Shown here: one piece after another, positions 15,001-35,162 of the stretch
Layout: each line of letters begins with the position of its first letter
How positions within the stretch are numbered: the stretch's first letter is position 1
Assembly (NCBI GenBank): GCA_964389345.1
Contig: CAYMER010000070.1
Location: 1 to 35,162, forward strand
Length of the DNA: 35,162 bases
Direction of reading: 5' to 3'
Origin: an uncultured bacterium
GTDB taxonomy: Bacteria > Omnitrophota > Omnitrophia > Omnitrophales > Aquincolibacteriaceae
Notes under the pieces: model-generated
Seen by the model: the letters and a program-made list of their open reading frames with translations, nothing else
Database searches by the model: none
Told to the model about the DNA's origin: nothing
Translations under genes and position numbers: made by a program

Positions 15001-18000
15001 CGGGTTCCCATGCCACTAATTCGGCACGGACCCGTTGAGCAAAAGCCGGAGAAAAGAAAATGATGATCCCGTATCGAGTAAGATCCATTCCAAAATGTTT
15101 TATATTCCTTACAAGACCGGTGCGGAAATCATGTTCTTGGAAGGTCGAGATCAGAGGAACTTCGTCGCTTGCCCCAAAATCCAGGATTCCGGTCCCAAGA
15201 CCAAGCTGTCTCACCAAGATCTCGGCGATTCTGCGGAGAAGGACAACGCCCTCTTCGCCGGTTCTCTGTTTAAGTTCCTCATTAAGAACCAAAAATAGCG
15301 GATCAAAATCAACGATAACATTAAAATCCTTTTTCTCCTGCGACGCCTCCCAAGTCCCCAAGGCCCTCCTGACATGCCCGGCGACAGCTTGAAGGACAAG
15401 AAGTTCCGGCGCATTGCTCGACGGGCGTAAAAGCTTTTGAAGATAACCCTCCACAATCCCGAGTTTCGTCCGGATCTCCGCGACGTTTTCTTTCGTGATC
15501 CGTTCCTTAGACCCATGAAGGACATTCAGGATCTCCTTCATGGCCGGAACAAGAACCTGGTCCACCTCGCTGTTAGAGCGGTTCTCACTCCGCCGAACAG
15601 CGTTTCCTGCTTCGGAACGGGTCTGGTTTGGAGCAGGCGCAATAAAAAAGGAATCGCCGGCGCCGGATACTTCGTAGGCTTCGTTTCTGTCCAAAAGACC
15701 TTTCTCCAATATCTCCTTTAACGCGATCCGTCCCTGGATATCCCATCGCAAGATAACAACACCCTTGAATTTTCCATCCGTGTATTCCCTTAGCCTGGCC
15801 GGATTCTGGGGCTGGCCCCTCAAGACTTCCTGTTGCCATGTCCCGGCCGAATACACCCTCAACCGTTTGGGATCTTTTTCAGGAACAATAACAAGTCTCG
15901 AGTCCCCACCGAATTCTTTCCGGAACAAGGAGGGTATGGTGATCCGGTCTTTAGGATCCAGGTTGTGCGTAAAAGCACCGGCAAAAAGCACTGCCGGATT
16001 TTCGCGTGCTTCAGAACGAAGTTTTTGGGCGACAACCGGCAAGGCGACGAAGCGGCCGGCGGAAAGATCGTTCAACGCTTGCGCGATCTCTGCCGGGGTC
16101 TTTTGATAACCACTCGATGCAACGTCATTAAGAGGGACGCGAACCGCCTCTGCAAGAGGTTGATCTCCCGGGATCATGAAGAGCGGCAAGCGAGTGGTCC
16201 CCGCCTTGAAGGTCCCGTCTTGTCTATCGGAAAAACTAAAGTCAAGAGTAGCGGGCTTGCCGTTATCCTGCTGGGGCCGTAACGTTTCTTTTCCACGAGC
16301 CACTTGGATGGCATAAGTCACGGAGAAGCGATCGCCCAAATCGTCCAGCCTGGTTATAACGCGGTCCGTCAAAATAACCTTAGTGGTCCCGCCTAATACA
16401 GGAATTTCCACCCCTTTCGGCAACGCTTCAATTTCCGCAGGAACGCCGGCGGGGAATTCGATGCGGAAAGTCGTTCCTTGCTTGCCGTCAACGCCGCCCT
16501 CGGGTCCGGTCGATTCCAGACGAACCGTACCGCCGTTCTTCTCGGCCAGTTTCTTGACGATCACGAGCCCGAGCCCTGTCCCTTTTTCTTTGGTCGTAAA
16601 ATAAGGTTTGAATAGTCTTGCCTGTTGCTCTTCCGGGATGCCTGCACCATTATCCGCGATCGAAATAACGACACGCTTGCCGTCGTCAGAAAGTCCGGCC
16701 CTGACCACCACTTCGAGTCCTGATCTTTCCCAAGGGTACATCGGCGCCGGACGCGATTCCTTCGCATTTTTGATAAGGTTGGTAAAGATCCGCTCAAGAT
16801 CGATCTCGTCACCCTTGATGAGCGGAACATCCGGAGCGATTTCAAAGCGAATCCTCCCGCCATATTCGCGCATCCCCACGGAGCGGGACTGAAGACGGAT
16901 GAATTCCCCGATATCCAGTTCGACGATGCGGGAAGGAGCGGGAAGGTCCTTTAAAGAAGCTTCGAGTCTTTCGATCAGGTCGCTGATATTCGAAAGACTT
17001 CGTTCAAACAGCCGGCCCTCTTCCCCTGTTCTCAATGGTTCCGGTATTCCGAGATCTTTGAAAAATTTTTCCAAACTAAATGTCCGCTTCCACTCCAGGA
17101 GCGCTTCAAGGGCGTATTGGCACTGTTTCAGTATCCGTTCGGCGTTCTCCGGGGTTACTTCCGTGCTCCCCCGCGGCGGGATGTTCCTCTCTGCGAGAGC
17201 TTTTTCGATCTCCTTGAAAGGGGCGTCATTGAAAGGAACCTGCTCGTATCTCCATAACCCGATATAAACATCCGCTCCGAATAGTTTGTTATTAATATCG
17301 TGACGGATCTGCGAAAATTCCAGCAATGCCCTCGCCGCATCTTCGACGACATTCCTCGTCTCCGAACGAGCGGCGGGCGGAGTGGACGGCTGAACAGCAG
17401 GAACTACTTTCGCGGGAGCGGATTTTCTCCAGGGTTTTTCAACCCAAAGATAACCGATCGCGAGACCGATCCATAAAACGCCTACGGCGATCGCCAGACC
17501 GATCACCCATTTTGTTAAATTGTCTTTTTTCCGGGGCGCTTGCTTCACCGGCACCGGCGGCTTTGCAGCAACCGACGGAGCCATTGTCCTGGAAACACGC
17601 TGTGGCACCTTTAAAACAATCCTCTTTCCGCCTTTCAAATCGGACGCCGTCCCAGGATGATTGACCGATGAACCAGATTTATTGCCCGTCGAACCGGGAT
17701 TGAGAACAATATGAGTAGCGTGAGCGACAGGGGTGACCGGAACAGCTACTACCGGTTCCGCTTCGATCTCCCAAACAACTTTCTCGAAAAGAGAGGCATC
17801 CGCTGTCCCGATCCCGAACGCTTTCTGAATATAGCCATTCAGATCGATCAGCGGGACAGGATTTCCGTTGTTTATTTCGAAGCGCTTGTGCCCATTTTGC
17901 ACTAACAACTGCCTTAATTTTTCCGGGAGTTTATCCAAGCTTTTGAATTCGACTTTGGAGACCCGGACCTTCCGGAGATCGATTCCTTTGAATTCCGGCT

Positions 18001-21000
18001 TCCCGCTTTTCGTGAAGATTCCCACCATGAGGTCCGCCAGCATCGCCGTTCCTTCCAACTCAAAGTCATACTCTCCAAAAATCATCTCCTTCGGCTCGGT
18101 CCTGATCTCCGAACGTAAGGCGTTTTCGAGCATCGCAGGATCGTTCCACCTGAAAGGTTTTTTGCGGCCGACTTTGATCTCATGCTCGCCGACAGGTTGC
18201 GCGCTGACGCCGAGCCCGGCAAGGACCGTAAGAAGTTGCTCCCGGCTCTGCGGCGTGAATTTTTCAGTACCGGCGCTGATGAGAAGCCCGCCCCGTCCTT
18301 CGCGCTGAACGATCACGTCCGAAAGATCGCTTCGCTGTTCGGAGCGTCCGATTGACAGTTCAAAAGGAGCTGCGGCCTCCGGAAATTTCTCGCGCCAAAG
18401 AATCGGCCCTTTGCCCGGCGCATCTAAAAGAACGCGTAAGGCAGCGCCGAATGTCGCGTGGCTGAAGATCACGCCCGTTTTCCCGTCCAGGATCTTATCG
18501 ATCGCAAGGATCTCATCGGCCGCCTTTTCAAGAAGATCGATAAAGGATTCGCCTCCTCCGACGGAAAGGGTCGCATTGCTATCGTTGCGATACGCCAAGG
18601 ATTCCCGAAGAGCTTCTTCGCCATAATAAGCAAGGATTTCATCGTCCGTTAAATTCTCGAAGCGGCCGTAGCCCATCTCGGCAAGCCCGGGACGTACAAG
18701 CGCTCGCACCTTGAAATGTTCTTCCGAGGGCTCTGCGGTCTCGCGCGCCCGGGTCAAAGGGCTCACGAAAAATCTGAAGACTTTATCGCCGGCAAGAAGT
18801 TCCTTTAAGAAAGAGATCGCCGCTTCGGCCTGCTCGCGTCCGGCAAACGTCAACTGATTGCTCCTCTCGTCCGCGGCCCCTTGATACCGTCGCTTGCCAT
18901 CCGTGCGGTCGAGCTCCATAAGCTCCGTTCTGCCGTGTCTGACAAAAAGGATCCTGGACTTCAACGGGAGCGGTTTGAACTTTTCGGTATAAACGATATT
19001 CCCCGTCTTGGGATCCCAGGAGAGCCCGAACCGATCCAGGATCGCCCGTTGCCTCTCCGTCGGCTCCGTCCGTACTTCAGAACGCTTCGCCTGCAGTCGC
19101 GCATCGATCCGCGTTAAAGCTGCGATGCCTTCTTCATAAACGTGGGCCTTGGACCCGATCGCTTCGGCCCGGTCTCCGACTTCGCGCCGGATCATTTCAA
19201 TCGTCTCGGGGATAGCATCCGTTTGGATCACGAACGGGATCTCAAGCCCCAAGGACTTCATTACGTCGGTGATCGCGAGCGCTGAATTCTTTCTCCGGTC
19301 CTCGGGGCCCATCGCATGATAAGTCCCGATCCCAACCAGGTGAAAATCCAGCAACGCCGCATCAATGGTCGCTCCCTGTTCCGTCAAGATCCGGATGGCT
19401 TCCTCCGCGTCCCGCGCGCCAAGGATCTTTATTCCTGGAAAGATCATCGGGAGATAATCTTGAAGAAGCCCGAAATCCCTTCCGTCATCCACCAGCAGAA
19501 GCGTGGCGATCCCCTGCCGCGCCTCAGAGCGGGTCACTCCCAACCGGGACAATTCTCTGGCGATCGCCGCGTCGCCTCGCAGCGTCCGGAACTCGCTCGT
19601 GCCTTTATCCTGAAGGGTCATCTCGAGGCGCCGCTCGATCGCGTGGTACATCAGGATAAAATTATCCACTTGGGCTTGCGGCTTCGCATAATCCTTGACC
19701 GGCGTCGGTTCGGCGCTCCGGTTCCGCGGATGAGAATGTCCTATCGCCGGCGCGGGGATCATAAAAAGGTTTGAGGAAGCCATGGCGCTCCTGCTCCCGT
19801 AGGACGCGGACAATTCTGCGGCCGTAGGAAAACCCCGGCCTTTGGTCAGGAAAATATACGTTTCGCCTTGCTCCGCCCTGAAGACCTGGAAATAAAATTC
19901 AAACCCGACGTTGAGGAGCGTCTTTAATCGTTCGAGACTGATCGGCCCCTTGAAAACCCACGCCCATTGTCCGTTGTCCGCTTCCCTCGAATCCTGGATG
20001 ACCTGCTCCACCGGCACGGCAAGGGACTCGAAAGCCGGGAAGAAGAACTGCTCGAGGACCGCCTGTTCATTCTTAATATTGCGGTGAGCGTTTTCTTCCC
20101 GTTTTTCAAAGCTTACTGGCTCTGAACCGTCGATCGCGGCGACTTTCCTTGAGAAAAATTCATCGATCGCGTGGTTGGCCACGAAGATCTCGATATCATC
20201 GTTTGTCCGCAACAGGGCACTGATCTGTGCGCGCAGGTTCTTCGCATTCACGGACTTTTGTCCCGCCACGGCGGGCGACTGGAAGATCCTTTTCGGGCCT
20301 TTTTCGGCTTTTAATCCCTTGAGAAATTCTCTTACACTCCCTACATTAATTTTTGCGGCAGGGCTGACCGGGGCTAATTCCTCGTAGATCGCGAGCGCCT
20401 CATTGGCCAGCGCTGCGGCCTGCAGACGGTCTTCGGTGCCTTGCGCCCGCTGGAACATCCGGGTCGCTTCGCTCAGCCTCGCATCAACATTTTCCCGAAC
20501 CTCGGAGCGGGCTGTTGGGGCCTTGAATTCTTCGATCGCTTCCGGACTTAATACGTACCATCCTTGTCGCGGCCCCGAACCTTCAGAGCGCGTTCTTTTC
20601 GGAAAATGACGAATGTATCCTTCCAGCACGGCGCGCTGGAAAGACGGCCGCAGAGCCCCTGCCGGTTCTTTCAGCTGTCGCAGCGGTAAAATGCGCGGGA
20701 ACCGGCTCATGTCGCCCGTGAGGAGATCGACCTCCGGGAGATGCCGCAAAATGAAGCTGAACATGAACGGAGACAACGGGTTTTCTCTTTTTTGAACAAG
20801 ATAGCGAAGGAGCCCCTGCATCCGCTGCAGGACAAGTTCCGGCGACAACTCTTTATTAAGAACGATCCCCCGCGCCTCCGAACGGTTTCCCGATCCGGAG
20901 GGCTGCGCTCCAGAAGTGCCGGATGTCCCTGGGAGAGCCTCTGCTTTTTTCTGGGATCTTTTCCATAACCGAAAGCGATAAATAAAATCCGCGATCGATG

Positions 21001-24000
21001 CCGCAAAAATAACGGCCAAGACCACTTTCGCCCTGGAAGACCATGAAAGCCCAAAGGCAAGCCCGATTCCTCCCAACCAAAAAGGCATCGCGACAGCTTT
21101 GATCAACATTGTTTTTCTCGCTTCTCGCTTTTCGCCCTCTTGTCCTCTCGCCTCGGAGCGGGCGGAAAATCCGGGGTAGGAAACTTTGCCATAGAGCGCG
21201 CTCAGGACCTGCATGCAGGTCTTCGGATCTTCAAAAACAATGAGGCCGTTTTGCCGCAAACGGTCCCGGATCGCTTCCGCGTCCGGCGAAGGGTCGGTCC
21301 CCGCGAGAATGACCGGCTTGGTATGCGGCAGGCTTTCAAGGAACTGCAGAAATGCCTTGTTCCCTCCCGGTTCGGCCGCCTCCGTGTGGACCCATTGCAA
21401 ATAGCCGCTTACGATCACGTCGAATTTCGGGGAGGCCATGAGGTGTTCGATGAGCGGCCTGGCATGATCTTTCAGGGTGGAAGCCCCGGTGATATCGAAA
21501 AAATTTCTCGAATGGTCACCGAGCTTGAACTCCCTAATGAGCCCGGCAAGCTCCGGACCGGGTTCCGGCGTCACGACCGCCGGTTGATAAGCTTCGCGCA
21601 GTGCGATCACGGCATCCCTTGCGACGCCGACGTCGTGGCCGCTTGTCCAAAAATTAAAGACCCGGGCGCCGCGCTTAAGCCCCGGATGGGTATATTTCGA
21701 CAACGCTGCCGCGGAACTGAGGATCTCCACCCAGAGTTTGTCGTCGTTGGTGACGACCGCTCCCGCCTGTTCGAACACAGACGCGAAATGCTCATACTTC
21801 CCGGCCTCGGCTCCCGTATGACCGGACACGGCCGCCGCTCCTGCGTCCGTAAGGCCTTGTTTGCGGATCACCACGCACACGCCCCGCTCCCGCGCCTCGA
21901 GGATCAGTTTCTGCAACCGGCCCGCGTCCTCGAAGTCGCGCAAGCCTTCTATATAGAGCCCGACGACCTTGATCGCCGGATCGTTCTCCAAGATGTATTC
22001 CAGAAAATCCGCGGCCCCGAGGTCGAACGCGTCGCCGTTGGGAACGGCGTATTTGACCTTGCCGTACCAGCGATTGAAATAACTCACGGCCGCCGCGGTC
22101 AGCCCGCCGCTTTGCGCGATAATCGCGACGTTCCCTTCCTCGAACACGTTCATGGCCGAGGATTTTCCCGCGAACGTCGCCCTTAAGCCGGGGATGACGG
22201 GGCCCATGGTATTCGGCCCGAAAAGCGCCGCCCCTTTGGGCGCCTTGGCCGCAGCGGCCTTCAGCTGCTTCGCGAACCTCCGGTTCTTGCCCTCGAACCC
22301 GCTGGCAATGATCATTACTTTTTTTCCGGCAGCGAGAAGTTTTTCCGCTTCCAAGGTGGCCGCTTTCGGACCCATGCAGACAATATAAAGGTCCGCATCC
22401 TTCGCGGGGCCTTTATTCCACTTCGGAATGAACGGGATCGCGGGACTGCCGGTCCGCTGGAAACTTTCCCCTCTTTCCGCGCCGTTCTTGTAAACAAAAT
22501 GAAGTTCGGCCAGTCCTCCGGTCCGGAAACTTTCCATAAGATGGTCCATCATGTTCACGATCTGGCCCCTGGGACTCGCACCGATCACGGCAATACTTCT
22601 GGGATGAAGCACTTCCCTGATCCGTTCTACGTCACCGATAAACCGCAGTTCGGGTTTTTTCCCGACCTGCATCACGGCACCACGGACGTCGATGACCCCA
22701 TTCTTATCGCACAGGAGCGGGTTGATATCGACTTCCCGGATCTGGTAGCTTCCTTCCCGATCGTATTTTCGCTTGAACAGGACCAGCTGCCGGATGATGC
22801 GCCTGAGCTTTGCGATGTCCTTTTCTTCCTTGAACGGAAGCCCGAGCTTCCGGTAATTGCCATAGACAAGGTCCCGGCCGTACTTCGTGGACCGGATAAG
22901 GTCTTCGATCTTGAACGGGAACCGGTAGTCACGGAACGCGCTGTCCGAACGCCAGTTCACCAGCTTTCCGCCTTCGCCGAAACTTATGAGCCGGCCGTTA
23001 ACCGTGTCCGCCAGGCCCAGGAGCATTTCGCTGACTTCGTTTGCCTTGTCTGCCGACTCGTAGACCATCACGCCTTTTGCGCCGGGAATATCGAACATCC
23101 GGGGAAGAATGGCCGCGGCCTCCTCGCGACTGACGACATTCACGCCTTTGACGTTCCCGGAACCTTTGTCGGATTTATGGAGCTCGGACGTAATGATCTT
23201 AAGGACCAGTTCGCCGTTCCCCGGGAATTCCGGCAAAGGATCTTCCTTTTTCCACACAAACTTGAAATCCGGCACCGGGATCCCGGCGGCTTTAAAGATC
23301 TCGAAAACTTCGTGTTCATAAAGGGTCGTGCGGCTTTCCGGTTCGGCGAGCGCTTTCGCGATCAGCTCATCTGCAACCCGCACCGCCTCTGCCAGATCGG
23401 GAGATTCGCTAGCGCGCGCCTCCGAGCGGTTTAATTCTGTTTCCGCAGCTTCGGGCCCGGCTTCGAATGCTTCTATCAGATCCTCTGCTTTTTCAATGTC
23501 CTCCTCGACGCCAAGGTCCCGGATCCGCCTTAACAGCTCATCGATTTCAATCTCAATGTCCTCGATAACGTCCCGGTCCCGGTCCTCGACGGGCTCGCTC
23601 ATGTTCTCATCAAGATCCCATAAAGCTCCCTGAAGCTCTCCCAGCAAGATCCCGGAAACTTCTTTTTCCAAAGACAGCTCCTCTTCTGTTTCATTTCCTT
23701 CCGGCATTTGCTCCGCGTCGTGTCGCGCGCGCGCCGGTTGCCGGATCATGTTGTCCAGGATGACCTCGAATCCTTTTTTCCAATTCAGATCACTTGCCGC
23801 AACCCCGGACTTCAAGGCCCGCAACTCGTCTTCTGTCAGGTCCCGGAGCGCCCTTTTGACCTCTGCTTTCCAGGAAGCAAGATCCTCTTTTGTGAAGTCT
23901 CCGACGACCTTATATCCCGAAATTTTGCTAATAAAAGACAGGGGGGTTACCGCGGGTTTTTCTTGCCGGTACCTTTCCTGTGTGAAGAAAAAGGGATCCA

Positions 24001-27000
24001 GGTCGCGCAGGATATCGAACGCGATCTCAACGCGGGACCTGGGTTGGCGTGGAGCCGGCGCCTCTTTGTCGCGGGATCCGGCATCTCCTTGACCGCTCCC
24101 AAGCCCGACCTCATTCACGCGCACTGTTATGGAAGCGCTTCCGCTGATCTGAATAGAAACGGCGGCATTCGGACCTGACACAGCCACCCTGACCAGATCC
24201 CCTCTTACTTCGGAGCGAGAATCGACAACATCCTGGCGGGGCGCACGGTTTACAGCAGACGCGCGCGAGACATCAAAGGCATTGCGGACCACGTGGACCA
24301 GAACGGTGTTTGGAACCAGGAAGAATTCGGCAAGCCCGCGGTCGTTGATGGCATCGACGTCCTGCCCGGAACGGTTTTCGCTGCGGCGGGGAGTGAACAT
24401 GATGTTTTGGATGTTCCGGACAAGCTGGCTGTTGGTCATGGCTGCGATCCCGAGGACCGTGGAACCGGTCATTTGTTCCAAATTCCGCACTGCTTGCGCC
24501 GGCGTGGCGATGCGAGGCGTTTCGATATGAAGGGTTTTCCCCTGTGCACGCGTATGACCCAGCCCGTCCCGCGTCTGGATCCGCGCCCTGATCTGGAAAA
24601 GGATCCGGTCAACGGCGATCTCCAGACTGGCCAAAGCCCCTTCGACCACCGGTTCCCACGCGACCAGCTGGGCGTTGATCCGTTGGATGAACGCCGGCAC
24701 GAAGAAAAGAATGATCCCGGACCGTGTAAGGTCGGTCCCAAGTCCTTGAAGAGTTCTTAAAAGACCGCGGCGGAAATCATGTTCGTGGAAGGTGGATATC
24801 AGGAAGACGTCGTCGGGTCCCTCCGCGAGGTCGATTACCGGCGTCCCGATGCCCAGTTTGACCACCAGAAGCTTGGCGCTTTCGAGACTCGCCTGGGTGT
24901 TCGCTAGGCCCGAATCGCGCGCAAGTTCCTCGTTCAGAAGGAAGAAGAACGGATCAAAATCGACAAAAACATCAGGATTGTTCTCTGCCGGTCCTCCTTC
25001 CCACACTTGCAAAATCCCGCGGATGTGCCGGATAAACGACTGGAGGACGATCAGCCCGACCCGATCCCCTCCCGAACGCAAGAGTCCCTCGATCCGGTCA
25101 TTAAGGGCCTCGAGCTTTGCGCGAAGGGTCGCGGCATTCTCTTTTGTGATCTTTTCCCCGGATGCATGAAGAATATTCAGGATCTCTCTCGTGGCCGGAA
25201 CAAGGATCTGCTCCATTTCCCTCATTTCACTCCGGACCGGGGCGGCGGGAACTGCGCTGAGTTCGCGCGGACGGATCGGGAGCGGGGTTTTGAGGTTTTC
25301 GGCGAATTCCGTCTGCAGCATACGCTCAACGACCGGGACTGCGCGCAGAAGACCGGCCTGGATCGTTTCGAGCGGGATCTGACGGTCATAGATCCAATCA
25401 AAAACGGGCTGAAGCATTTTGGAAGAGCTCTCGGTCCGGGAGATCACTCTGCTGATCACTTCGTCCGAGATCTCTCCGTTTTTCAATGCTGAGAGAACCC
25501 GCGCCACCGCTGTTCTTTTCTGATCCGTGATCCTTTTCCTCATATTCCCGGCGGAGTAGAAGATCTCCCCGACGATTTCTTTCCCCAAGACCTCCCAAAG
25601 GACCAGCCGCTCATAGATCGTGGCATTGGTAAAAAGATACCGGCCCTTCGCCCTTCCTTCATAGGCGCCCCAAAAAGCATCCACAAGCGATTGGATCGTC
25701 TGACCTTCTTCAAGAGTTTCTGGAATCTGCGGCAAGGTGGCCCGTTGGATGCTGCTTCTCCATTGAGGGGCGACGTACATTTTATCAGGCGCCTTGGTTT
25801 GAAGTCCTTCGCGCTCAATAGTCTCGATCGCAGCCGCGGCCCGTTTCATGGTTTCCGGCCAAATCCGCCGCAAAGCCGCCCACGCGATCGCCCTCTCCCG
25901 GGCCTTATCCGCTTCTGTTTGCTGCTCTTGTTGAAGAGAAGCGGCATTCTGTTCTTCGTCGGCGAAACGGATCGGCATTCCCATTGCTTTGCTGGCGTTC
26001 AAAAAATATCTGCTGCCATTTTTTTCTCCGTCAAAACGGATCTCGATGAAAGGTTCTTTCCCATGGCCAAGGGATTCGACGACCCCGACTTTCCCGTTCC
26101 GCGTCACACGTACTCCGGGCTCGATCCCTTTGAGGTTCCGAGGCACTTCGTTCCCCACCCGGATCTCCGAACGAACGTTTGAACGTTGTAAACTCGTTAC
26201 ATAATTTTGATAAGTGGCGACAAAAGCCGCGGCTGCGGCAGCCGTGCCGGCGCCCGTCAAAAAGGAACGGGCAATGGCCTGAAAATCCGCGGCGTCGCGG
26301 ATTTTCAAGGAACGGAACCCCTCGGCCGTTCCTTTCGAGATCTTCGTGAGCATTACAATATTCTTGGCCGCGGCCTCGAGCGCGATCTGCTTCTGATGCG
26401 CTTCCTGGATGGTTTTACCGCCTGTGATCGCGCCGTGCTTGGCAAGGAGAAGCGTCGGGTGGCTTTTGGCAGCCTCTCCGACAGCCACGGCAAGAGGCGA
26501 AAGCCCGGCAGCATAGTAATCAATGGCGGCCACTTCTTTCCCGGGTTCCCCAAGGGATGCTATGAGGGCTTTCCTAAGTTCTGCGATCTGTTGATTGATG
26601 CCGCGCAAAACCGGAGACATGTCGATCATCTCCTTCATCTGCTGATCCAGAATTTCGTCGCGTTCCGCCTGTAGCGCGGCAATGCGGGTGGCGAGCGCCG
26701 TACAATAGATCGGATGCCCGTGTTCAAGCGCAAAAGCTTCGGGCCTTGCCCGGTAATAGGCCAAATGGAACATGGTTTCAACGCTGGGTCTTGCGGAATC
26801 ATTCTTCCCGGGAAAACCTTTGACCTGTTCGCCGGTCACGGCATCAACCACGACATAGTCCTCAGCCCCCATGATTTCTTTTGCTTTACCGCTCGCTTTA
26901 ATAATCATGAACCGCCGGTCGGCGGTCAGCGCGCTGATATTGCCGCCCGGCCCGTCCACCATCCTGCGCGCGGCCATATCCCGTCCCACTTCAAGCAGAT

Positions 27001-30000
27001 CTTTGCTACGATCATTGATCTGTCCGGTATATTTCAGAACCTCTTCGGCAGTCGCTTGCCTGCTCGGATAGGCCTTTGCCGTCTTGAGAGCTTCAAGATC
27101 ATGGCTCAATTCGGCTTGCCGCAACCGTTCGACGCCATCGAGCATCAGGACTTGGAAATCATCAAGCTCTCCGACCGTCCCGAGAGTTTCTTCGGCACCA
27201 AAAACTTCGACAAGGCTTCGCGTAGTCTTGCCCCTGAAACGAGCCTCGAGTTCGTTTGTGCCGATCGTGATCGTGCCTTCGAGTGTCAGGACCGTGGAAT
27301 GCTCTTTCAGCGCCGCAATGACTTCGTTTACCGCAGCGTTGCCTTGTGTTCTGACGACTGGAATATAACCTTTCTCGTTCAACACGGCGATCTGTTCAGG
27401 CACCAATCTGCGGAATGTCTTGCCTGCTTCCGCAAGCCGGGCCGCATTCGAATCCTTATACTGGAGCACCCACGAGCTCTTGTTTTTCCCCTCTCTAGGA
27501 TCGGTCTGGTAATGTCCAAGATGCATTCTGAAATTCACATCTGCGATCGATGCCGCATCCGTCTTGATAGAAGCTTGGACCATCTTGCGGTCCGCGGCAT
27601 CTATATAGAAGACCGTATCACCGTCGCGGTAGCTGACCTTCGGAATCTCAAGACCGTTCGCCTCATATTTTTCGATCAGGGCCAGCAGAAGTTTCTCGGT
27701 AAAAATCACTGCGGCGGCCGCCGGAGACATTTCCACGGCAGGCTCTTGGACTCTTTGACGGACCTCTGACCGATTGCCTGTTGCGGCGAACAAGGCGCTC
27801 CTTTCGCCCTCTTGTTTCAGAAGCCGGTTGTGCTGTCCCCAAATAGACCGCAAGGCTTTGAGCTCAAGTTGCCGCGGTCGCTCACGGCTTAACAATCCTG
27901 CTTTTCCGTCCGCGCGATGAAGGAGCTCCCCTACTTCCTCAAACGTTAAGAAGGAATCGGGGCGATAAGGGTTCCGATGCTGAAGGATGATCCGCTGATT
28001 TTCGGTCAGCGTTGTCATCTTGGGCAGGACTGCCGACTCAAAAATAGGGTCTTGTAAAAGCGCATAAACTCTTTTCTTAAAATCCAAAACATCCTGCCCG
28101 ATCCGGACTTTTCCCGTCCTTGCTTCTGAACGAGAACGGCGCGTCTGGGACGACGTCGCGGGGGTAATGACAACATTGGAGCCGTCAAAACTAAGGACGC
28201 CTGCTTTTTGAATGATGATGCGCGGACCGATCCACACGTCATCTCCTTCGGGCAATGGCTGATCCGGAACGATCGGCTCGTTTTTGGCTTCGATCTTCAA
28301 GGCAAAGACCTCGTCGCGCGAGAAGCGGAGCGCTTTCCCTCTGGCAAGAAATTCCAGCATACTGATCGCTTGCGTTCCAAGGTCTCCGGCGTTTTTTATT
28401 TCCGGAAAAACCTTTCCGTCCCGGACAACAACTTCTCCCAGTTCGATCCAGCGTTTCCCGGGGGGACTGGTGGGATCATAAAGATAGGCTGGCAAAAGGG
28501 TCTCTTCAACGCCCTGTTCTTTCGTGTATTGGGCGAAAGCCGCAGCCATCCGATCGACAACCTCAGGCAACGTTTGGATCCTTGCGGTGTACGGCCCTTC
28601 GACATTTTTGGGTAACGCCGCGAGTTTTGCGCGTCCCGGAGTTTCGCGGGCCATGGCCTCCTCCGCTCCGTCTTGCTCCGCAGTTCGATCCATATCCTCA
28701 AAAAGCGCCCGTACATTGAGAGGCCTCGCCTCCGAGCGCGCGGAACCATTGACAGGCACGCGGCGGGTCCCGGCATAGATGCGGATCTCGAGGCCGGCGT
28801 CGACCGGTGTCACCGTAGTCGTAAAATCCACGTTTTCACCAAGGACCGTCATCTCTCTCGCGAGCCTGCCCTGAATGATCTTCCAACTCGTCGCAGTGAC
28901 CGGGCCGTTAAAGACCCGGCGCTCTTGTTCATCTAGAAAAAGCACGATCCTCGTAAAAGAGTCTGTGCCGTTCGTTAAAGCCTGAATAGAATCAAAGACG
29001 GAAGCGAAACTCCCGGGATTCGCGGCAGCCTCCGTGGCCGGATCAGTCTCCGCGGGGAACCTTCGTGCCTCCGCAGGCGAATTCAGGAAGCTGCTTTTTC
29101 CGGTCCTCACCTCCGAACGGGTTCCAGCAAAAAAACGGGCGATCGCTTCGGGTGCCTGAGAAAAATCGGTGATCACAAAATAAGGTCTTTGCTCCGGAGG
29201 GAGCGCCGCGATAGCGTCCAGTTTTTTCGGATCATTCTCGCTAAAAAGGACCCCGACAACACCGGCCTCAAGCCCGTTCCGGACATCTCCGAGCGAATCC
29301 CCTTGCATCATGATCTGGCGCGGAGCAAGAGAATCCTGTTCTATAAGATGTTTCAATACAGAGGCTTTCGTCGGGAATGCCTCCGTTGCGCCGTACCGGT
29401 CCTCCGGCAGAAATAAGTCTTCGAACCCGAGTCTTGGGATCTCGGCTTTCACGCCGGCATCCGCATAACCGCTATTGACCACGAGCCGCACGCCGCGTTC
29501 TTTCAAAGCCCGGAAAAACCGCTCAGCCCCGGGGATCAAAACTCCTTCCTTTCCCAATGCCCGGATCCGTTCCAGCCTATATTGTTCCAGCTCTTGAAGC
29601 CATTCCCCGACATAGACCCGGACAGATTCTTCGACCGTGAGGGTTCTCCCTGCGGCATCTTTTTTGAGCGGCGCGCCTTGTGATAGCATCCACCTCGCAT
29701 GGTCGAAATCATTATTGGGACTTCCGAATTCATCGACATAAACCGCGACAGCCGGTTCGACCCCGGCTTTGGATTTTGCAGGATTTAAAAGGATCCGGTC
29801 GGCTAAGAATTTTTTCATGCGGTCCATCCATCCCTGTGCAGAAATAGAGAACGTGTCATCCATATCCGATGCCACGGTAGTGACTTCCAAGGACAACGGA
29901 GCGCCGGGTCGCGTCACCCGGAGCAGCCCCGGAACACCGGTCTCCTGAAAAAGATTCCTCATTGCCGCCGGAATAACGCTTTCTTTGATCTCAATCAGGC

Positions 30001-33000
30001 CGTCCTTCACTCCGTTTGCCTGAGCCACGTCATTGACCAAAGCGGCAAGCGCGGGATAATCACGTTCGAAAGCGGCAAGTAACGGTTCGAGAATTGTTTG
30101 TAACGCCTTGATCCGTTCATCGTCGAGCGGCTTTTCCGGCGAAACCATTTCCCGGATTTGCTGATCGGAAAGACCGAGGAGACCTTTTACGATAAGATTT
30201 ACAGCCCGCGCGGCCGCTCGATTGTTTCTAGCGACGATCATCTTGAGAGTTCCTGGATCCCGCATAAGCAGATACGACGTGTTCCATTTGTCAAGCGACT
30301 CGATCATGCGCCTGCTACGTAGGTCATGGGCCCGCCGGAGCGGCCTTTTCAGTTCCGATAGAGAGCGAAGCGATGATTCAAACTCTTCCCTGTTTTTCTT
30401 GAGACGCTTCACAACATCCCCCGCGTCCAGATGAGACCCTTTCCTTGCCGTCTTCTCCACCGTCTTCTCCAACGGACCGAAAGCCTTCAAGATGCGGAGC
30501 GCTTTCCGGATATTGCCTTTAAGGCTCGCAATTTTTCCTTCCCTCGCCTCCGAACGACCGATGGCCAAGCGGTTCAAGGCATCGGCGATGGCAAGGTGGT
30601 ATTCGTCATAAAATTTTCCGAGGAAATGTTTTGTTTTAGGCGGCGTTTCTTCTTCGTCCGCCGGCCCCATCTCGTTGCCATAGCCCATGTCGCGGAGCAC
30701 CTTTTCAACGGCCCTCTGAACGCTGCCGTGAAGCAAGGGAAAGACGCCGGCCGAATGAAACGTTTTGGCTAAGTCCGCGGGCGCCATCTCCGGCTCCGCG
30801 GAAAGTCTCTTGGAAAAATCGTCCGGATCGATCGTCCTCGTTTCCGCTCTTGGGGGAGATTGCCGGGCATTACTTTCAGAAGCGATCAAGGCTGTGGGCC
30901 CCGGGGCGACTGGCGCAAGAATAGCGCGGGGCTTTTTTACGTCTGTCGGCGCTTGCCTCTTGGCATCGAGGGGATCATATTCAACCAGCGTCACGTTGAG
31001 CTCGTGCCCTTCTGGAGAGGTGATCCTTAAAAGCCGGCTCAGATCGGACGACATGGATCTGATCTCCGCGGGATCGCGCGGCAGACGTTTCACCCAACGG
31101 ACATTATTACCAAAAAATTCCAGGATTTCCTGAGGATGAACCTCAAAACTGAGACTAATCGAAATGGCCGCTGAGGAATCTTTCCTTTTTAAAGTGATCC
31201 TGGGTTCTCCAAAAATTTTTACAAATTGAAGCATCCGGTACTGTTCGGGATCTTCAAAAAGATCCCCCGTCTTCGCAAGAAACTCCGTCTGGAGTCGTCC
31301 TGACCGAGAATCCGTAATCCGCCAGCCTAATTGCCAGAGAATTTTTCCGGAGGAGGCGACTGTAGAGAAAGAAGGGCGCATTTGCCGCTGAATCGTCGGC
31401 AAGCCGAAAACAGCTTTTCCGCCGTCAGGTTCCGTCCATAGAACGTAGCGGTTCTCATCTTCCGGATCGCGAGGGAAAAGCGTATTTTGCGGAGACTTCA
31501 AAAACCGGAAAAACTCGACAACACCCGGGAACTCCAGCGGATTCGCAACCAACAGAGCCGTTGCAGAGGTTTGCAGAGCGGTTTCTCCTGCATCTTCCGT
31601 TCCAGCCCTTATTTCCGATCTTGGAGGAGATTGCTTAACGCCGCTTTGCAGCGCGGCTGGCCCGTCCGGCTTTGTCGTGTCAATCGTGCGCAGCGCCCCC
31701 TCTGCCTTCGAACTGTCATCTTCTTGTGCGGGCGGCGCGCGCTTCGCCTTTGTTACCAGAAGCAGAAAGTAGAGGCCCCAGCCAAAGGCCATCCCACTGA
31801 AAAGACCGAGCGCTCTTGAAAGTAACGGAAAACCGGAAAGAACCGGGAAAACCGCGCGATAGAAAAAAATCAATGGAATCCCAAGAACAAAAGCTGCTAA
31901 AAAACCCAGAAACATCATGTTGAAAGAATCAAACCTGGTTTTTTTCTTCCCTTCTTCTGCTCCCGAACGGACCTCGGAACGTTTGTTTGTCCCAACGAAC
32001 TCGTTTTCAATGTTGTCGTCGGCAAGGATCTTACGAACGGCTTTGTTGGCGAGAGCGACGTCGCCGAGAGCTTTTTCAAGCTGGGCCTCATAACCCGGCC
32101 AAAGTTCATCAAATTGCCCCGGTCTTTCGTACGCGATCACCTGGCGACCCACTTCGCGCATTTCGGCGCGGCGAGAGGCGAGTAGCGCTTCGCCGTCGGG
32201 CAGAGTGCGGATGAAGGGGATGTCGCTTGAGGCTGAGGCACCGATGTTGCTAGCCGGTACGGCGGAAGGCGTACGGCGTCTTTGTTTTGACTTTCGCCGT
32301 ACTCCGTACGAACCGAGCAGCGATCGAATATAGTTTTTCTCATCTTCCGCCCTTATCTCACCAATATTGGGAGTAATGCCGATATAAGAACTCCCGGAGG
32401 CGGTGATCTTTTCCTTGAAACCCTCCGCGTGAAAGCCGCCGGTGATAAGAACGGCTTTTTTGTCTTTCCGTGCGCCAAGGATCTTCATGGCGTTTTGCAT
32501 CATCGCGTCTTCTCGCGTGATCGCGAGTTCGTAAAACCGGGTCGCAGCCCCAAACAAAGAAGTGATAGGCGCTAATTTGGAAGACCCGAGTTTTAGACCC
32601 GCCGCTATTTTCTCCGGTGTGATCTTTTGGGATTGAAGCTCCCGGAATTCTTTTCGGCTAAGCTCCAACTTGAAAAGTTTTTTAAGAAGGCGGTAGCGAC
32701 GAAGAATCTCGACGAGCTTCTGATCTTGCTCTGTTTTGACAAGCCGCACGGTCATTTTTTCGGTCAGGGCCCCGATCTCCTCCTGAAGCTGCTCACTTTG
32801 CAATTCGCTCAAGAGAATCAGTTGCTGAAGATAAAGCCGGAGGTTCGGGTAAGGGTCAAACGAGAAATCTTTGGGCAACTGATCGAGGAGGCGTTCGAAA
32901 ACAAAGCGGGTTTTATAGAGCGGCAGATCGCCAGCATTCTTGTGATCCAGAAGCTTTGTGATCTCCTGAAGAAGGGTTGCGGGAACCTTCCGCGCCCGGA

Positions 33001-33904: not shown

Positions 33905-34108
33905 GAAATGAACGTTTGTCCTTTCGGGATTTACCTAGGGAAGACTTAATCGAAAGATAACACATATTCTTTAAATTTCAAGGGGTTGAAAAAGGATTTA
34001 TCAAGGTATGTTTAAAGCCATTTGAAGAAACCCCCTATTATGATCGGTCGCTATAAATTGCTAGAAAATGAGCTGGAAAGCATTAAGAAGAAAACTTTCT
34101 CCAAGCTA

Positions 34109-34137
34109 TTGATTTTAAACAGGTTCTGAGCTATAAA
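34109..34137 (+). promoter_or_regulatory. Sigma-70-type promoter candidate for the plus-strand gene
   Basis: TTGATT (34109-34114), a 17-nt spacer, then TATAAA (34132-34137). The predicted transcription start is near 34144. The consensus is borrowed from model bacteria and the host is unknown. Confidence 0.3.
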
Positions 34138-34287
34138 TATAAGGGGTCGGAGCTTTTCCCGACTCACTCATCCTGAGCCTGCCGAAAGGCAGATCGAAGG
34201 ATCTCATTCGAGATTCTTCGGCCCATTGTTTTCTTGCGAAAGCAAAAAGCAGGCCTCAGAATGACGGAACTATCAAATCGAATTCTC

Positions 34288-34292
34288 GAGGA
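34288..34292 (+). promoter_or_regulatory. Shine-Dalgarno candidate for ATG 34297
   Basis: GAGGA lies 4 nt upstream of ATG 34297. Confidence 0.4.
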
Positions 34293-34296
34293 TGTT

Positions 34297-35130
34297 ATGC
34301 CAACAAAAAAAATCTTCACTGTTTTTCTTTTTTTGATTATCACGCTCGTTGCCGTTCCGCTTGCGCTGAGATCCGAAACGCCTGAGCCTAGCGCCGACAC
34401 TTCCCTTGCCTTATTGAATCTCGCGGTCCCCGAAGAGATCGGGAAAGTCCAGGAACGTTTTACCGGAAACAGTGCAAGGACGATCATTCAGATCCAGGAT
34501 GTTCACGCGCACGCCGCAGCCCAGCAGAACATCGCAGCTATTCTGGAGCGCCTTCGTGTGGTATTTAGCATTGAGAAGGCCGCGCTCGAAGGCGCTTGGA
34601 CCGCCACTTCCCTTCCCGAAAGTCACGCAATCCCGACCTCTCGTGAAAAACAGCTTCTCGCCGGAACCCTGCTTGAAAATGATCAGATTTCAGGGCCGGT
34701 CTATGCCGCGATCATGTCCCCGGAACCGATCACGCTGATTGGGATCGAAGACAAAACGTCCTATGAAAAGAACAGGACTCTTTTTCTGGATCATTTCAGG
34801 CAGACAAAAGAGATCGAGGAAAAACTCCGTGCTTATGGAGCGTCACTGCAAGAGTTGCAAAGATCCGCCTGGGGACCGGAGCTTTTGGCCTTCGGAAATG
34901 CCTTCGGAAAATTCCGGGACACCTCCGACCTTGGAAAATTTTTTCTGGTCCTCCTCAAAGCCGCAGAAAACCAGAGCGTGGATATTTCCGACCTTGCTCA
35001 GATCCTTTTGCTCCGGGACATTATGGCCTTGGAAAAAAGCTTCGAAAAGGAACGCCTCGAAGCGGAGGTCAAACGGGTCATTAAAAAATACAAGAACAGG
35101 CCCTGGACGATCGAAGAATTGATCCGAGGC
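34297..35130 (+). CDS. Exported or membrane-anchored paralogue of the giant ORF N-terminal module (partial, truncated by the contig end)
   Basis: The frame is open from 34177 to the window end, so it is not in the ORF track. ATG 34297 gives MPTKKIFTVFLFLIITLVAVPLAL, a signal/anchor sequence. An in-frame ATG at 34261 is the alternative start. VPEEIGKVQERF..RTIIQIQDVHAHAAAQQNIAAILERL..EKAALEGA aligns with IPAEFGKITDII..PLLIHIQEAHANYDAQKNIKAILEHL..KQIFLEGA of the giant ORF. The last 32 nt of the window are adapter and are excluded. Confidence 0.75.
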
Positions 35131-35162
35131 AGATCGGAAGAGCACACGTCTGAACTCCAGTC
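35131..35162. other. Illumina TruSeq adapter remnant (sequencing/assembly artefact)
   Basis: AGATCGGAAGAGCACACGTCTGAACTCCAGTC is the exact first 32 nt of the TruSeq read-through adapter. Confidence 0.93.

What the first reader, a model, noticed from the sequence alone, without database searches (positions are those of the whole stretch)
32249..33462. Two copies of a palindromic mini-element inserted in frame into the coding sequence (reminiscent of Rickettsia palindromic elements)
Copies at 32249-32310 and 33384-33462 share GCTAG..GTACGGCGGAAGGCGTACGGCG, a 16-nt T-rich loop, and CGCCGTACTCCGTAC. Each can fold into an 8-bp inner stem plus a 6-bp outer stem. The longer copy differs by exactly three extra 7-mers (one GTACGGC, two TCCGTAC), which is 21 nt, so the frame is kept. 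They encode SYGVR...RRTPSAV(P/L)A, with a basic loop peptide in the shorter copy and a mixed-charge one (DKQKEN) in the longer. At the position of copy B, the plus-strand paralogue reads ...AIMSPEPITLIGIEDKTSYEKN... and has no such insert. This argues for secondary insertion into a pre-existing domain. In-frame palindromic selfish elements are established for Rickettsia, but I cannot say whether this family is described.
Basis: partly seen in the sequence, partly recalled or inferred. Interest (0 to 1): 0.6.

Follow-up and report, generated by a model that had tools for sequence, protein, structure and literature searches.

The report
Heptamer-armed hairpin elements inside genes
The two palindromes in this giant Omnitrophota gene belong to a genome-wide family of small DNA hairpins with stems built from tandem 7-base units; these sit between genes and, read in frame, inside proteins, and their stems stay conserved while the sites they occupy switch between hairpin families from species to species.

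Summary
Copies at 32257-32309 (53 nt) and 33388-33461 (74 nt) are real hairpins that differ by exactly 21 nt. They belong to a family with at least 54 paired copies in this 1.78 Mb Omnitrophota MAG: (GTACGGN)2-4, an 18-20 nt polar A-rich loop, (NCCGTAC)2-4. Stems are 6-bp blocks with a mismatch every seventh base. At least seven other heptamer families share this architecture. About 28 of 144 units are read through in frame, in N-terminal modules of giant proteins and in NadE, UvrD, MiaB-like and MqnA/D enzymes. Only stop-free families are in frame, always with the A-rich loop strand coding. Site A is empty in 9 of 11 orthologues. Site B holds six different families across 12 orthologues. A structure model puts both inserts in disordered excursions. 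Three results go beyond a simple selfish insertion. N-modules are denser in these runs than intergenic DNA. Orthologous arms are 91% identical against 73% for flanks. In the MqnA/D gene, complementary arms straddle a native coding segment and co-vary by family across species. The three RAYT-like transposases each have their own non-heptamer REPs, so the mobilising mechanism is unknown. I class it as a new variant of REP/RPE-like elements. Earlier scan notes on this window did not describe it.

The parts
32257..32309 (-). Copy A of the GTACGGN hairpin cassette: 3 left and 2 right heptamer units with an 18-nt loop. It is read in frame as aa 533-551 of the giant protein (full insert relative to orthologues about 32252-32308).
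   Evidence: The orthologous site is empty in 9 of 11 genus orthologues. It maps to the pLDDT<50 segment 533-566 at the C-terminal edge of the folded N-module.
33388..33461 (-). Copy B of the same cassette: 4 left and 4 right heptamer units with an 18-nt loop. It is read in frame as aa 148-173 (insert about 33386-33463).
   Evidence: The orthologous hairpin in G016 has arms 55/56 identical against flanks at 72-74%. The site holds six different heptamer families across 12 orthologues and is empty in G006 and G007. It maps to the pLDDT<50 segment 150-169 between helix 138-144 and strand 175-178.
32000..33904 (-). Host: the N-terminal module of about 580 aa (signal/anchor helix plus a domain with HIQEAH and ITGGFH motifs) of the giant ORF 2..33904. 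It is one of about 14 paralogous modules in this genome and the densest location for heptamer hairpins.
   Evidence: Pfam gives only a weak ChaN/Tiki hint. The fold search found nothing significant.
34234..35160 (+). Divergent paralogue of the N-module without inserts. It serves as an internal empty-site reference and is truncated by the contig end.

Best explanation
The two segments are members of a dispersed, copy-propagated family of small palindromic DNA cassettes. They work like REP/RPE elements, but their stems are tandem heptamers: (GTACGGN)n, a polar A-rich loop, (NCCGTAC)n. Shown: the cassette (left arm, loop, right arm) is the unit that recurs in unrelated contexts. It descends from a common master, because it has a polar arm and loop consensus. 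It occupies intergenic spacers and the coding sequences of many proteins. Shown: inside genes only copies that pass a filter are seen. The heptamer must be stop-free in all six frames, the orientation must put the A-rich loop strand on the coding strand (giving K/E/N/Q loop peptides), and the total length must keep the frame. Because arm length changes in 7-nt steps, changes must sum to a multiple of 3, as in the 1+2 unit difference between copies A and B. Survivors sit in disordered surface excursions. Copy A is a lineage-specific gain. Copy B predates the G000/G016 split. Inferred: propagation is by copy-and-paste or short-tract conversion with a strong preference for a limited set of permissive sites. 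The same loops are re-occupied by different families in different species. Arms are kept near the family consensus by selection for pairing or by homogenisation. The enzyme responsible is unknown, and it is not evidently one of the three RAYT-like transposases in this genome.
For: Family size and specificity: 78 arm hits against 0 control; at least 54 L-loop-R pairs; L..R 57 against R..L 8, with spacing mode 18-20 nt. Flanks are unrelated and there is no target-site duplication. There is a polar consensus of arms and loop. Period-7 runs number 348 against 63 for period 8. In-frame status: dicodon test, ORF continuity, and 28 of 144 units in frame across families, with none in the stop-containing families. 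Coding-strand loop is A-rich 13 times and T-rich 0 times, p=2.4e-4. Secondary insertion: clean indels against paralogues, orthologues, wider homologues and a solved homologue of the MqnA/D enzyme, 1zbm; NadE site 1 presence/absence. Hosts confirmed by Pfam. Structure model: both inserts fall in pLDDT<50 coil. Taxonomic range: high copy number only in this genus, 15 of 19 species with 0 to about 130 hits, and traces elsewhere among 301 phylum genomes.
Against: No mobilising enzyme is identified. Each RAYT-like gene is flanked by its own non-heptamer REPs, RAYT orthologue loci in six relatives lack heptamer runs, and G005 has 43 hits but no RAYT hit. N-modules carry about 4 times the run density of intergenic DNA and about 23 times that of other CDS, which tolerance alone hardly explains. 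Arms of orthologous copies are 91% identical against 73% for coding flanks (p=1e-7), so they are not decaying neutrally. In the MqnA/D gene the left arm at site 1 pairs with the right arm at site 2 across a native conserved segment in 13 species, with six different families. A cassette-insertion model explains this only through many parallel partial losses. No population-level evidence of presence/absence polymorphism could be obtained.
Confidence: 0.55

Rival explanations
1. These are functional nucleic-acid hairpins at fixed sites, not primarily selfish elements. The stems are selected for pairing, in mRNA or in single-stranded or supercoiled DNA. They could act as processing or stability determinants, as binding sites for a structure-specific protein, or as sinks for the supercoiling generated by transcribing 15-34 kb genes. 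The sites are ancient, and the heptamer family occupying them turns over in concert within each genome.
For: Arms are conserved well above coding flanks and loops between G000 and G016. MqnA/D long-range pairing is kept in 13 species (duplex -22 to -49 kcal/mol, against -8 to -9.5 in the three species lacking arms) while the heptamer family differs but matches between the two sites, which is covariation on the scale of whole arms. The same loop sites are occupied by up to six families across orthologues. In low-copy genomes (2-13 period-7 runs per 100 kb) the N-module and MqnA/D genes still carry hairpins. There is a regular mismatch at the seventh position (Watson-Crick 13% against 35% expected, p=1e-5). 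N-modules at the 5' ends of giant genes are the densest location.
Against: Empty sites exist in healthy-looking orthologues at every site examined (G006 and G007 at site B; 9 of 11 at site A; G013, G007 and G019 in MqnA/D; most species at NadE site 1). Copy number per genome ranges from 0 to about 130, as for an expanding repeat. No Rfam family matches. No trans-acting partner was identified. Gradual compensatory evolution would not generate heptamer periodicity or genome-wide family sharing.
Confidence: 0.25
2. The heptamer tracts near the 5' ends of a multigene family of giant surface proteins act as contingency loci. Slipped-strand gain or loss of one 7-nt unit shifts the frame and switches a costly giant gene off or on.
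For: The unit length is not a multiple of 3. Unit number varies from 2 to 4 per arm between copies. Tracts are concentrated in the first 600 codons or so of about 14 paralogous giant-protein genes. Paralogue C95 changes frame exactly at its site B hairpin, while its close relative C81 (88-90% nt identity) is intact.
Against: Arrays of only 2-4 units are short for high-rate slippage. The same cassettes sit in single-copy housekeeping enzymes (NadE, UvrD, MiaB-like, MqnA/D) where switching off would be harmful. Most copies are intergenic. There is only one frameshifted example, which could be a pseudogene, an assembly error or a second strain in the bin. No read data were available.
Confidence: 0.08
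3. They are classical REP/REPIN elements mobilised by a RAYT (Y1 HUH tyrosine transposase) encoded in the genome.
For: There are three RAYT-like genes whose best NCBIfam model is REP_Tyr_transpos. One of them (C190:8464-9159) lies within about 1 kb of several GTACGGN arrays. The behaviour is REP-like: copies lie between co-directional genes, a TAG stop is supplied by the element terminus, and there are intragenic copies in repair genes, as reported for REPs (PMC3733652).
Against: Each RAYT-like gene is bracketed by its own non-heptamer palindromes: C49 CGGGGTCACACCCCG, C211 CACGAACCCGGGGCGTG (17-20 copies in doublets) and C190 ACACACACCCGGTGTGTGT. The arrays near C190 lie inside neighbouring genes. 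Six orthologous RAYT loci have no period-7 runs within 1.5 kb. There is no correlation of RAYT presence with copy number: G001, G008 and G014 have the RAYT but 0 GTACGGN hits, while G005 has 43 hits and no RAYT hit. The scores are below the curated cutoff (56-67 against 80 bits).
Confidence: 0.1
4. It is a protein-level repeat motif or an assembly artefact.
For: The peptides YGVR(R/S)T and RRTPYAV recur in many proteins. The contig ends in an Illumina adapter.
Against: Most copies are non-coding. The conserved feature is DNA complementarity, not the peptide. Other families give unrelated peptides at the same sites. The same elements occur at orthologous sites in more than 15 independently assembled MAGs.
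Confidence: 0.02

Closest known systems
REP / REPIN elements (repetitive extragenic palindromes; GTAG- and CGTC-tagged families; Di Nocera et al. 2013, PMC3733652; Bertels & Rainey 2011, PMC3116915)
   Same: Both are short GC-rich imperfect palindromes in tens to hundreds of copies, with lineage-specific families and several families per genome. Most copies lie between co-directional or convergent genes. The element terminus supplies the TAG stop of the upstream ORF. Some copies lie inside ORFs, including DNA-repair genes, and different REPs have been reported at the same site in orthologous genes. Stems are interrupted by regular mismatches in some families.
   Different: Here the stems are tandem arrays of a 7-nt unit with variable unit number. 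There is no unpaired GTAG or CGTC tag. The hairpins are not the palindromes that flank the RAYT-like genes of this genome. About a fifth of units are in frame. The highest density is inside one protein module rather than in intergenic DNA.
Rickettsia palindromic elements (RPE), as summarised in PMC3733652 and from my own knowledge of Ogata et al.
   Same: Both are palindromic elements inserted in frame into functional protein-coding genes, where they are tolerated as surface peptide insertions.
   Different: RPEs are longer (about 100-150 bp for RPE-1), lack heptamer periodicity, occur in an obligate intracellular alphaproteobacterium and have a CGTC tag. No sequence relationship was found, and no Rfam or other match was obtained.
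Tandem heptanucleotide repeats of cyanobacteria and Beggiatoaceae (TAACTGA repeats, MacGregor 2015, PMC4679880; heptamer excess in bacteria, PMC4692102; STRR sequences from my own knowledge)
   Same: Both have 7-nt units in arrays of 2-6 copies, mostly intergenic, with a lineage-restricted and patchy distribution. The coding potential of the heptamer determines where arrays are tolerated.
   Different: Those are direct repeats: 169 direct sets against one indirect set in BOGUAY. They lie mostly just upstream of start codons and generate stops in the forward orientation. Here arrays come almost always as inverted pairs (57 L..R) that form hairpins, and the heptamers are stop-free.
DNA uptake sequence 'dialects' in Neisseriaceae (from my own knowledge; not tested here)
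   Same: In both, short sequence families differ between related species at conserved positions, often occur as inverted pairs at gene ends, are tolerated inside genes, and are conserved above background by a molecular drive.
   Different: Copy number is one to two orders of magnitude lower here. The hexamer GTACGG is not over-represented outside arrays. No competence link was examined.

Membership tests
REP/REPIN-RAYT system | A short imperfect palindrome present in many dispersed copies, mostly extragenic | tested here: met
   At least 54 paired copies; about 70-80% are not read through in frame
REP/REPIN-RAYT system | A conserved unpaired GTAG (or CGTC) tetranucleotide at one end of the hairpin | tested here: not met
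   Units begin GTAC or GTAA and are paired. Flank profiles show no conserved tag. Only the minor GTAGGTA family contains GTAG.
REP/REPIN-RAYT system | A cognate RAYT gene flanked by copies of the same REP | tested here: not met
   All three RAYT-like genes are flanked by other, non-heptamer palindromes. Orthologous RAYT loci lack period-7 runs.
REP/REPIN-RAYT system | Mobilisation by the RAYT (binding and cleavage of the hairpin) | not testable with these tools
   This needs biochemistry.
Rickettsia palindromic elements (RPE) | A palindromic repeat inserted in frame in functional ORFs, absent from orthologues | tested here: met
Rickettsia palindromic elements (RPE) | Sequence homology to the RPE-1 to RPE-10 consensus, or a CGTC tag | tested here: inconclusive
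   No direct comparison with RPE consensus sequences was run. The Rfam scan found nothing. The architecture (heptamer arrays, 45-93 nt) and the host phylum differ.
Tandem heptanucleotide repeat families (TAACTGA / STRR type) | Direct tandem arrays of one 7-nt unit, intergenic | tested here: met
   Arms are arrays of 2-4 units; period-7 runs number 348 against 63 for period 8
Tandem heptanucleotide repeat families (TAACTGA / STRR type) | Arrays occur singly as direct repeats rather than as inverted pairs | tested here: not met
   57 L..R inverted pairs with spacing mode 18-20 nt
Simple-sequence contingency loci (phase variation) | Length heterogeneity of the tract within a population that switches the reading frame | not testable with these tools
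There is one frameshifted paralogue at a hairpin (C95).

The most novel reading that the evidence does not exclude
The hairpins form a previously undescribed system in which a limited set of genomic sites, including fixed loops inside conserved enzymes and the N-terminal modules of giant proteins, is kept occupied by heptamer-periodic stems. The sequence family at these sites is rewritten in concert within each genome. Arms can be installed or maintained as complementary pairs around native sequence, as in the MqnA/D gene. This implies either a dedicated, still unknown arm-writing or converting machinery, or a conserved structural function of the stems in RNA or DNA.
Probability: 0.25. Interest if true: 0.85.

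Novelty: new variant of a known kind. Interest (0 to 1): 0.62.

Why it matters
In-frame palindromic elements are textbook oddities of Rickettsia and of a few REP-rich bacteria. Here the same behaviour appears in an uncultured phylum, with a distinct and very regular architecture: tandem 7-mers, a mismatch at every seventh base and a polar loop. The comparative data are unusually clean, with empty sites, family replacement at identical sites, and arms conserved more strongly than the proteins that host them.

Practically, these cassettes explain odd low-complexity peptides such as YGVRRT…RRTPYAV, TRNAQR…ERCVLRG and LGTRDS…SPESRVP in Omnitrophota proteins. They should be masked when aligning or modelling giant proteins. 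They also mark surface-exposed, insertion-tolerant loops.

Conceptually, the concentration in the 5' modules of giant genes and the straddling, co-varying arms in a housekeeping enzyme raise a testable question. These hairpins may be selfish passengers, or they may be structural elements that the cell maintains.

Tried and rejected
- RAYT link: examined in detail and largely rejected.
- Known RNA family: the Rfam E-value scan of 31900-34300 found nothing.
- Viral vector: eight viral contigs carry the heptamer only as direct arrays, without the hairpin architecture.
- Nesting of new families inside old hairpins: there are 0 heterologous neighbours within 60 nt. Clustering within 400 nt is 19 against 4.9 expected, and the heterologous part is only 8 against 3.4, so replacement looks clean rather than nested.
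- Loops derived from the target, with arms added around native A-rich DNA: rejected for standard copies, because loops share a cassette signature (G-A5-G…CGCGnnAC) even in genic copies. It remains open only for the MqnA/D gene and the second site of C81/C95.
- N-module fold identity: no significant PDB match. There are only weak erythromycin-esterase-like hits and a sub-threshold ChaN/Tiki Pfam hit.
- Target-site duplication or conserved target motif: none was found.
Full report
**1. The observation**

Window 32100-33600 contains two imperfect palindromes on the plus strand. They are 32257-32309 (GTACGGC GGAAGGC GTACGGC | GTCTTTGTTTTGACTTTC | GCCGTAC TCCGTAC) and 33388-33461 (four left units, loop GTTTTCTTTTTGTTTGTC, four right units). 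The shared 22-nt arm is exact in both and is not expected by chance, with 0 matches in 100 shuffles. The longer copy has one extra left unit and two extra right units, which is 21 nt.

Both fold significantly better than dinucleotide shuffles, as DNA on either strand (z -2.6 to -4.1) and as sense RNA (z -2.3 and -4.9). Each has an 8-bp inner stem and a 6-bp outer stem separated by an internal loop.

They lie in one minus-strand ORF that runs from ATG 33904 off the window end, more than 11,301 codons. They encode aa 148-173 and 533-551 of its N-terminal module. Relatives are Candidatus Omnitrophota MAGs, in agreement with earlier notes on this window.

**2. A genome-wide family with a regular anatomy**

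The arm matches 78 places in the 1.78 Mb, 335-contig, 69%-complete assembly at up to 3 mismatches, against 0 for the reversed control. A simple grammar, at least 2 units of G[TG]A[AC]GGN followed within 60 nt by at least 2 units of the complement, finds 54 hairpins. Adjacent arrays are almost always in the L…R configuration: 57, against 8 R…L of which only one is within 100 nt. The spacing mode is 18-20 nt.

When copies are oriented by loop composition, they share a polar consensus. The left arm is made of GTACGG(A/T/C) units. The loop is G-AAAAAG(C)TTTT…GCGnnAC. The right arm is GCCGTAC-GCCTT(C/A)C-NCCGTAC. The outer flanks are unrelated and show no target duplication. The cassette as a whole is therefore the repeated unit, and copies descend from a common source.

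The innermost seventh-position pair is usually C-G (31 of 54). At outer units the seventh position is Watson-Crick in only 11 of 82 cases, against 35% expected from base frequencies (p=1e-5). The stems are thus 6-bp perfect blocks punctuated by a mismatch every 7 nt.

Period-7 tandem runs are over-represented generally: 348, against 63 for period 8 and 25-38 for periods 5 and 10. At least seven further heptamer families build the same architecture: GCGCAAC, GGGGAAC, GGGACTC, GTAGGTA, ACAGACY, GTACATA and TAGGGTA. Rfam has no match.

**3. Position relative to genes**

The arms are stop-free in all six frames, so ORF containment is a biased test. I therefore trained a dicodon model on 612 long ORFs and asked whether both 240-nt flanks are coding on the same strand and in the same phase.

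Sixteen of the 54 GTACGGN hairpins pass, and 13 are confirmed uninterrupted. With all named families, 28 of 144 units are read through. The counts are GTACGGN 18, GCGCAAC 5, GGGACTC 3, and GGGGAAC and TAGGGTA 1 each. Families whose heptamers contain a stop in some frame are never in frame: GTAGGTA, ACAGACY and GTACATA give 0 of 27. In genic copies the coding-strand loop is A-rich 13 times and T-rich never (p=2.4e-4), whereas non-genic copies show no such bias. These are the marks of a selective filter on what a protein can tolerate.

Intergenic copies typically fill the spacer between co-directional genes, and the upstream TAG stop overlaps the first GTAC (C91 and C128). The same has been described for REPs (PMC3733652).

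Hosts of in-frame copies include six paralogues of the giant protein's N-module. They also include NadE with two hairpins, a MiaB-like radical-SAM enzyme, UvrD with two, and an MqnA/D-family menaquinone enzyme (Pfam).

**4. Secondary insertion**

*Paralogues.* Wherever one N-module carries a hairpin, most others show a clean gap. Some columns recur: C70 and C81 share site B, and C37, C227 and C197 all have one just before the IQDAH motif.

*Orthologues of the giant gene* (50-71% identity, ORFs of 3,000-9,400 aa). Site A is empty in 9 of 11, where the sequence runs LLG|SNA…, and G003 and G017 have GCGCAAC-type hairpins there. Site B carries the same GTACGGN cassette in G016, a decayed one in G003 and a truncated one in G019. 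It carries GCRCAAC in G005, GGAGGGC in G009, GGGACAC in G014, GGGACTC in G008 and G017, and GGGGAAC in G012. It is empty in G006 and G007.

*Wider homologues.* Of 17 wider homologues, 13 have nothing at site B and none has the site A insert.

*MqnA/D enzyme.* It aligns to PDB 1zbm at E=1e-70, and the homologue shows gaps exactly at the hairpin peptide and at a second arm.

*NadE.* Site 1 is a simple presence/absence case, with the hairpin in G000, G016 and a variant in G002. Site 2 is again a multi-family hotspot.

*Structure.* An AlphaFold2 model of the N-module (pLDDT 77, pTM 0.66) has its main low-confidence stretches, apart from the signal-peptide linker, at 150-169 and 533-566. These coincide with the two inserts. 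The first is an unstructured excursion between a helix and a strand, and the second lies at the domain's C-terminal edge.

**5. Distribution**

The GTACGGN×3 pattern occurs in 15 of 19 species of the genus, with 0 to about 130 hits. It occurs in 0 of 5 other genera of the family in the first sample. Across 301 genomes of the phylum it appears at low numbers in one sister genus and as scattered traces elsewhere. Random 100-kb samples of four same-genus genomes with few or no GTACGGN hits hold only 2-13 period-7 runs, against about 19.5 per 100 kb in G000. Several families coexist per genome in different proportions.

**6. What a plain selfish-insertion model does not predict**

(a) *Density.* Period-7 runs reach 2.0 per kb in N-modules, against 0.53 in intergenic DNA and 0.09 in other CDS. 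For GTACGGN the figures are 1.12, 0.13 and 0.03. The remaining 32 kb of the giant ORF has none. Low-copy genomes still carry hairpins in their N-module and MqnA/D genes.

(b) *Arm conservation.* For three hairpins orthologous between G000 and G016, arms are 146/161 identical. Flanking coding DNA is 1018/1398 identical (Fisher p=1e-7) and loops are 66% identical. At NadE site 1 the loops share an idiosyncratic sequence, so the two copies are orthologous by descent and not independent insertions.

(c) *Clean replacement.* Contigs C81 and C95 carry N-modules with 88-90% identical flanks but different families at both hairpin sites, with sharp boundaries. At the second site the A-rich loop is shared while the arms differ. 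C95 also changes frame at its site B hairpin. Different families are never nested within 60 nt of each other.

(d) *Straddling arms.* In the single-copy MqnA/D gene, two insert sites flank a native 18-aa core (KIAVPGKLTTAYLVLQLY). In 13 of 17 orthologues examined at the DNA level (the motif search failed for G003), a left arm at site 1 is complementary to a right arm at site 2, with duplex energies of -22 to -49 kcal/mol. The value is -17.8 in G018, whose site 1 arm is decayed, and -8 to -9.5 in the three species lacking arms. The family differs between species but matches between the two sites: GTACGGN, GCGCAAC, GGAKGGN, GGGACTC, GGGGAAC and GGAGTTT. G000, G016 and G002 additionally have a complete local cassette at site 1.

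**7. Mobilising enzyme**

Three Y1 HUH proteins score best against NCBIfam REP_Tyr_transpos, at 56-67 bits against a cutoff of 80. Each is bracketed by its own classical palindromes, and none of these is heptamer-built:
- C49 by doublets of CGGGGTCACACCCCG.
- C211 by CACGAACCCGGGGCGTG, which has 17-20 copies genome-wide, mostly in doublets.
- C190 by ACACACACCCGGTGTGTGT at 8451 and 9165.

The GTACGGN arrays near the C190 gene lie inside the neighbouring genes. Orthologous RAYT loci in six relatives have no period-7 runs. RAYT presence does not track copy number. The defining REP-RAYT association is therefore tested and not met. Eight viral contigs carry only direct heptamer arrays.

**8. Interpretation**

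The best-supported account (about 0.55) is a REP/RPE-like, copy-propagated hairpin cassette family with heptamer-periodic stems. It is filtered by selection when it lands in genes and has a strong preference for, or retention at, a small set of permissive sites. Copy A is a recent gain in this lineage, and copy B predates the G000/G016 split.

The main rival (about 0.25) is that the stems are themselves selected structures at fixed sites, with concerted family turnover. It is favoured by points (a), (b) and (d) above. It is disfavoured by the existence of empty sites everywhere and by the 0 to about 130 range in copy number.

A contingency-locus role (about 0.08) rests on the 7-nt unit, the 5' location in a multigene family and one frameshifted paralogue. 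RAYT-driven REPINs (about 0.10) are disfavoured by section 7. A protein motif or an artefact is excluded.

**9. Limits**

- The assembly is a fragmented MAG, 69% complete with 3.2% contamination. It may contain two related strains, given two NadE copies and the C81/C95 pair.
- Gene calls are my own crude model.
- Counts depend on simple grammars.
- Literature searches found no description of such elements in Omnitrophota, but the library is incomplete.

Noticed in passing
window 35129-35162: The contig's 3' end reads AGATCGGAAGAGCACACGTCTGAACTCCAGTC. I recognise this as an Illumina TruSeq adapter (my own knowledge). The last 11 or so codons of the plus-strand paralogue's ORF (…GRSEEHTSELQ) are therefore adapter-derived, and the contig end is an artefact.
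   Followed up: no
G000:C49:490-1320; C211:2718-3550; C190:8451-9190 (own genome, other contigs): There are three RAYT-like Y1 transposase genes, each flanked by its own classical non-heptamer REP palindromes in a REPtron layout. The C211 type (CACGAACCCGGGGCGTG) has 17-20 copies, mostly in doublets, so it is a separate REPIN-like population in the same genome.
   Followed up: partly
G000:C95:1114-2900 versus C81:9250-11100: These two N-module genes have 88-90% identical flanks but different hairpin families at the same two sites, and C95 is frameshifted at the first hairpin. Together with two NadE copies (C8 and C149, 73% aa identity), this suggests either recent paralogy or two related strains in the bin.
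   Followed up: partly
window 32000-33904 (minus strand), aa 40-530: The N-module has conserved HIQEAHxxxxAQ, LEGA and ITGGFH motifs, a sub-threshold Pfam hit to ChaN/Tiki (PF04187, E=0.003) and weak Foldseek hits to erythromycin-esterase-like proteins. This is not established.
   Followed up: partly
L064, L068, L071, L070, L073, L074, L075 (genus loci): The MqnA/D-family gene lies on the same contig as the giant gene's start, about 11-28 kb away, in at least 12 genus genomes. The two hairpin-rich loci are therefore syntenic neighbours. In G000 they are on separate contigs (C190 and C70).
   Followed up: no
G000:C91:5010-5075 and C128:9600-9665: The hairpins exactly fill the spacer between co-directional genes. 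The upstream TAG stop overlaps the first GTAC of the element, and a GGAG-type ribosome-binding site followed by ATG lies within about 20 nt downstream.
   Followed up: partly
G000:C327:5921-8197 (UvrD) and C300 (LigA), C306 (class I aminoacyl-tRNA synthetase): UvrD carries two in-frame hairpin-derived peptides from two other families (ATRNAQRATEGQNSLSVERS and SPESRVPSP) and a GTACGGN copy just upstream of its start. LigA and the tRNA synthetase gene have a copy directly upstream of their start codons. This echoes the reported bias of intragenic REPs towards genome-maintenance genes (PMC3733652).
   Followed up: partly
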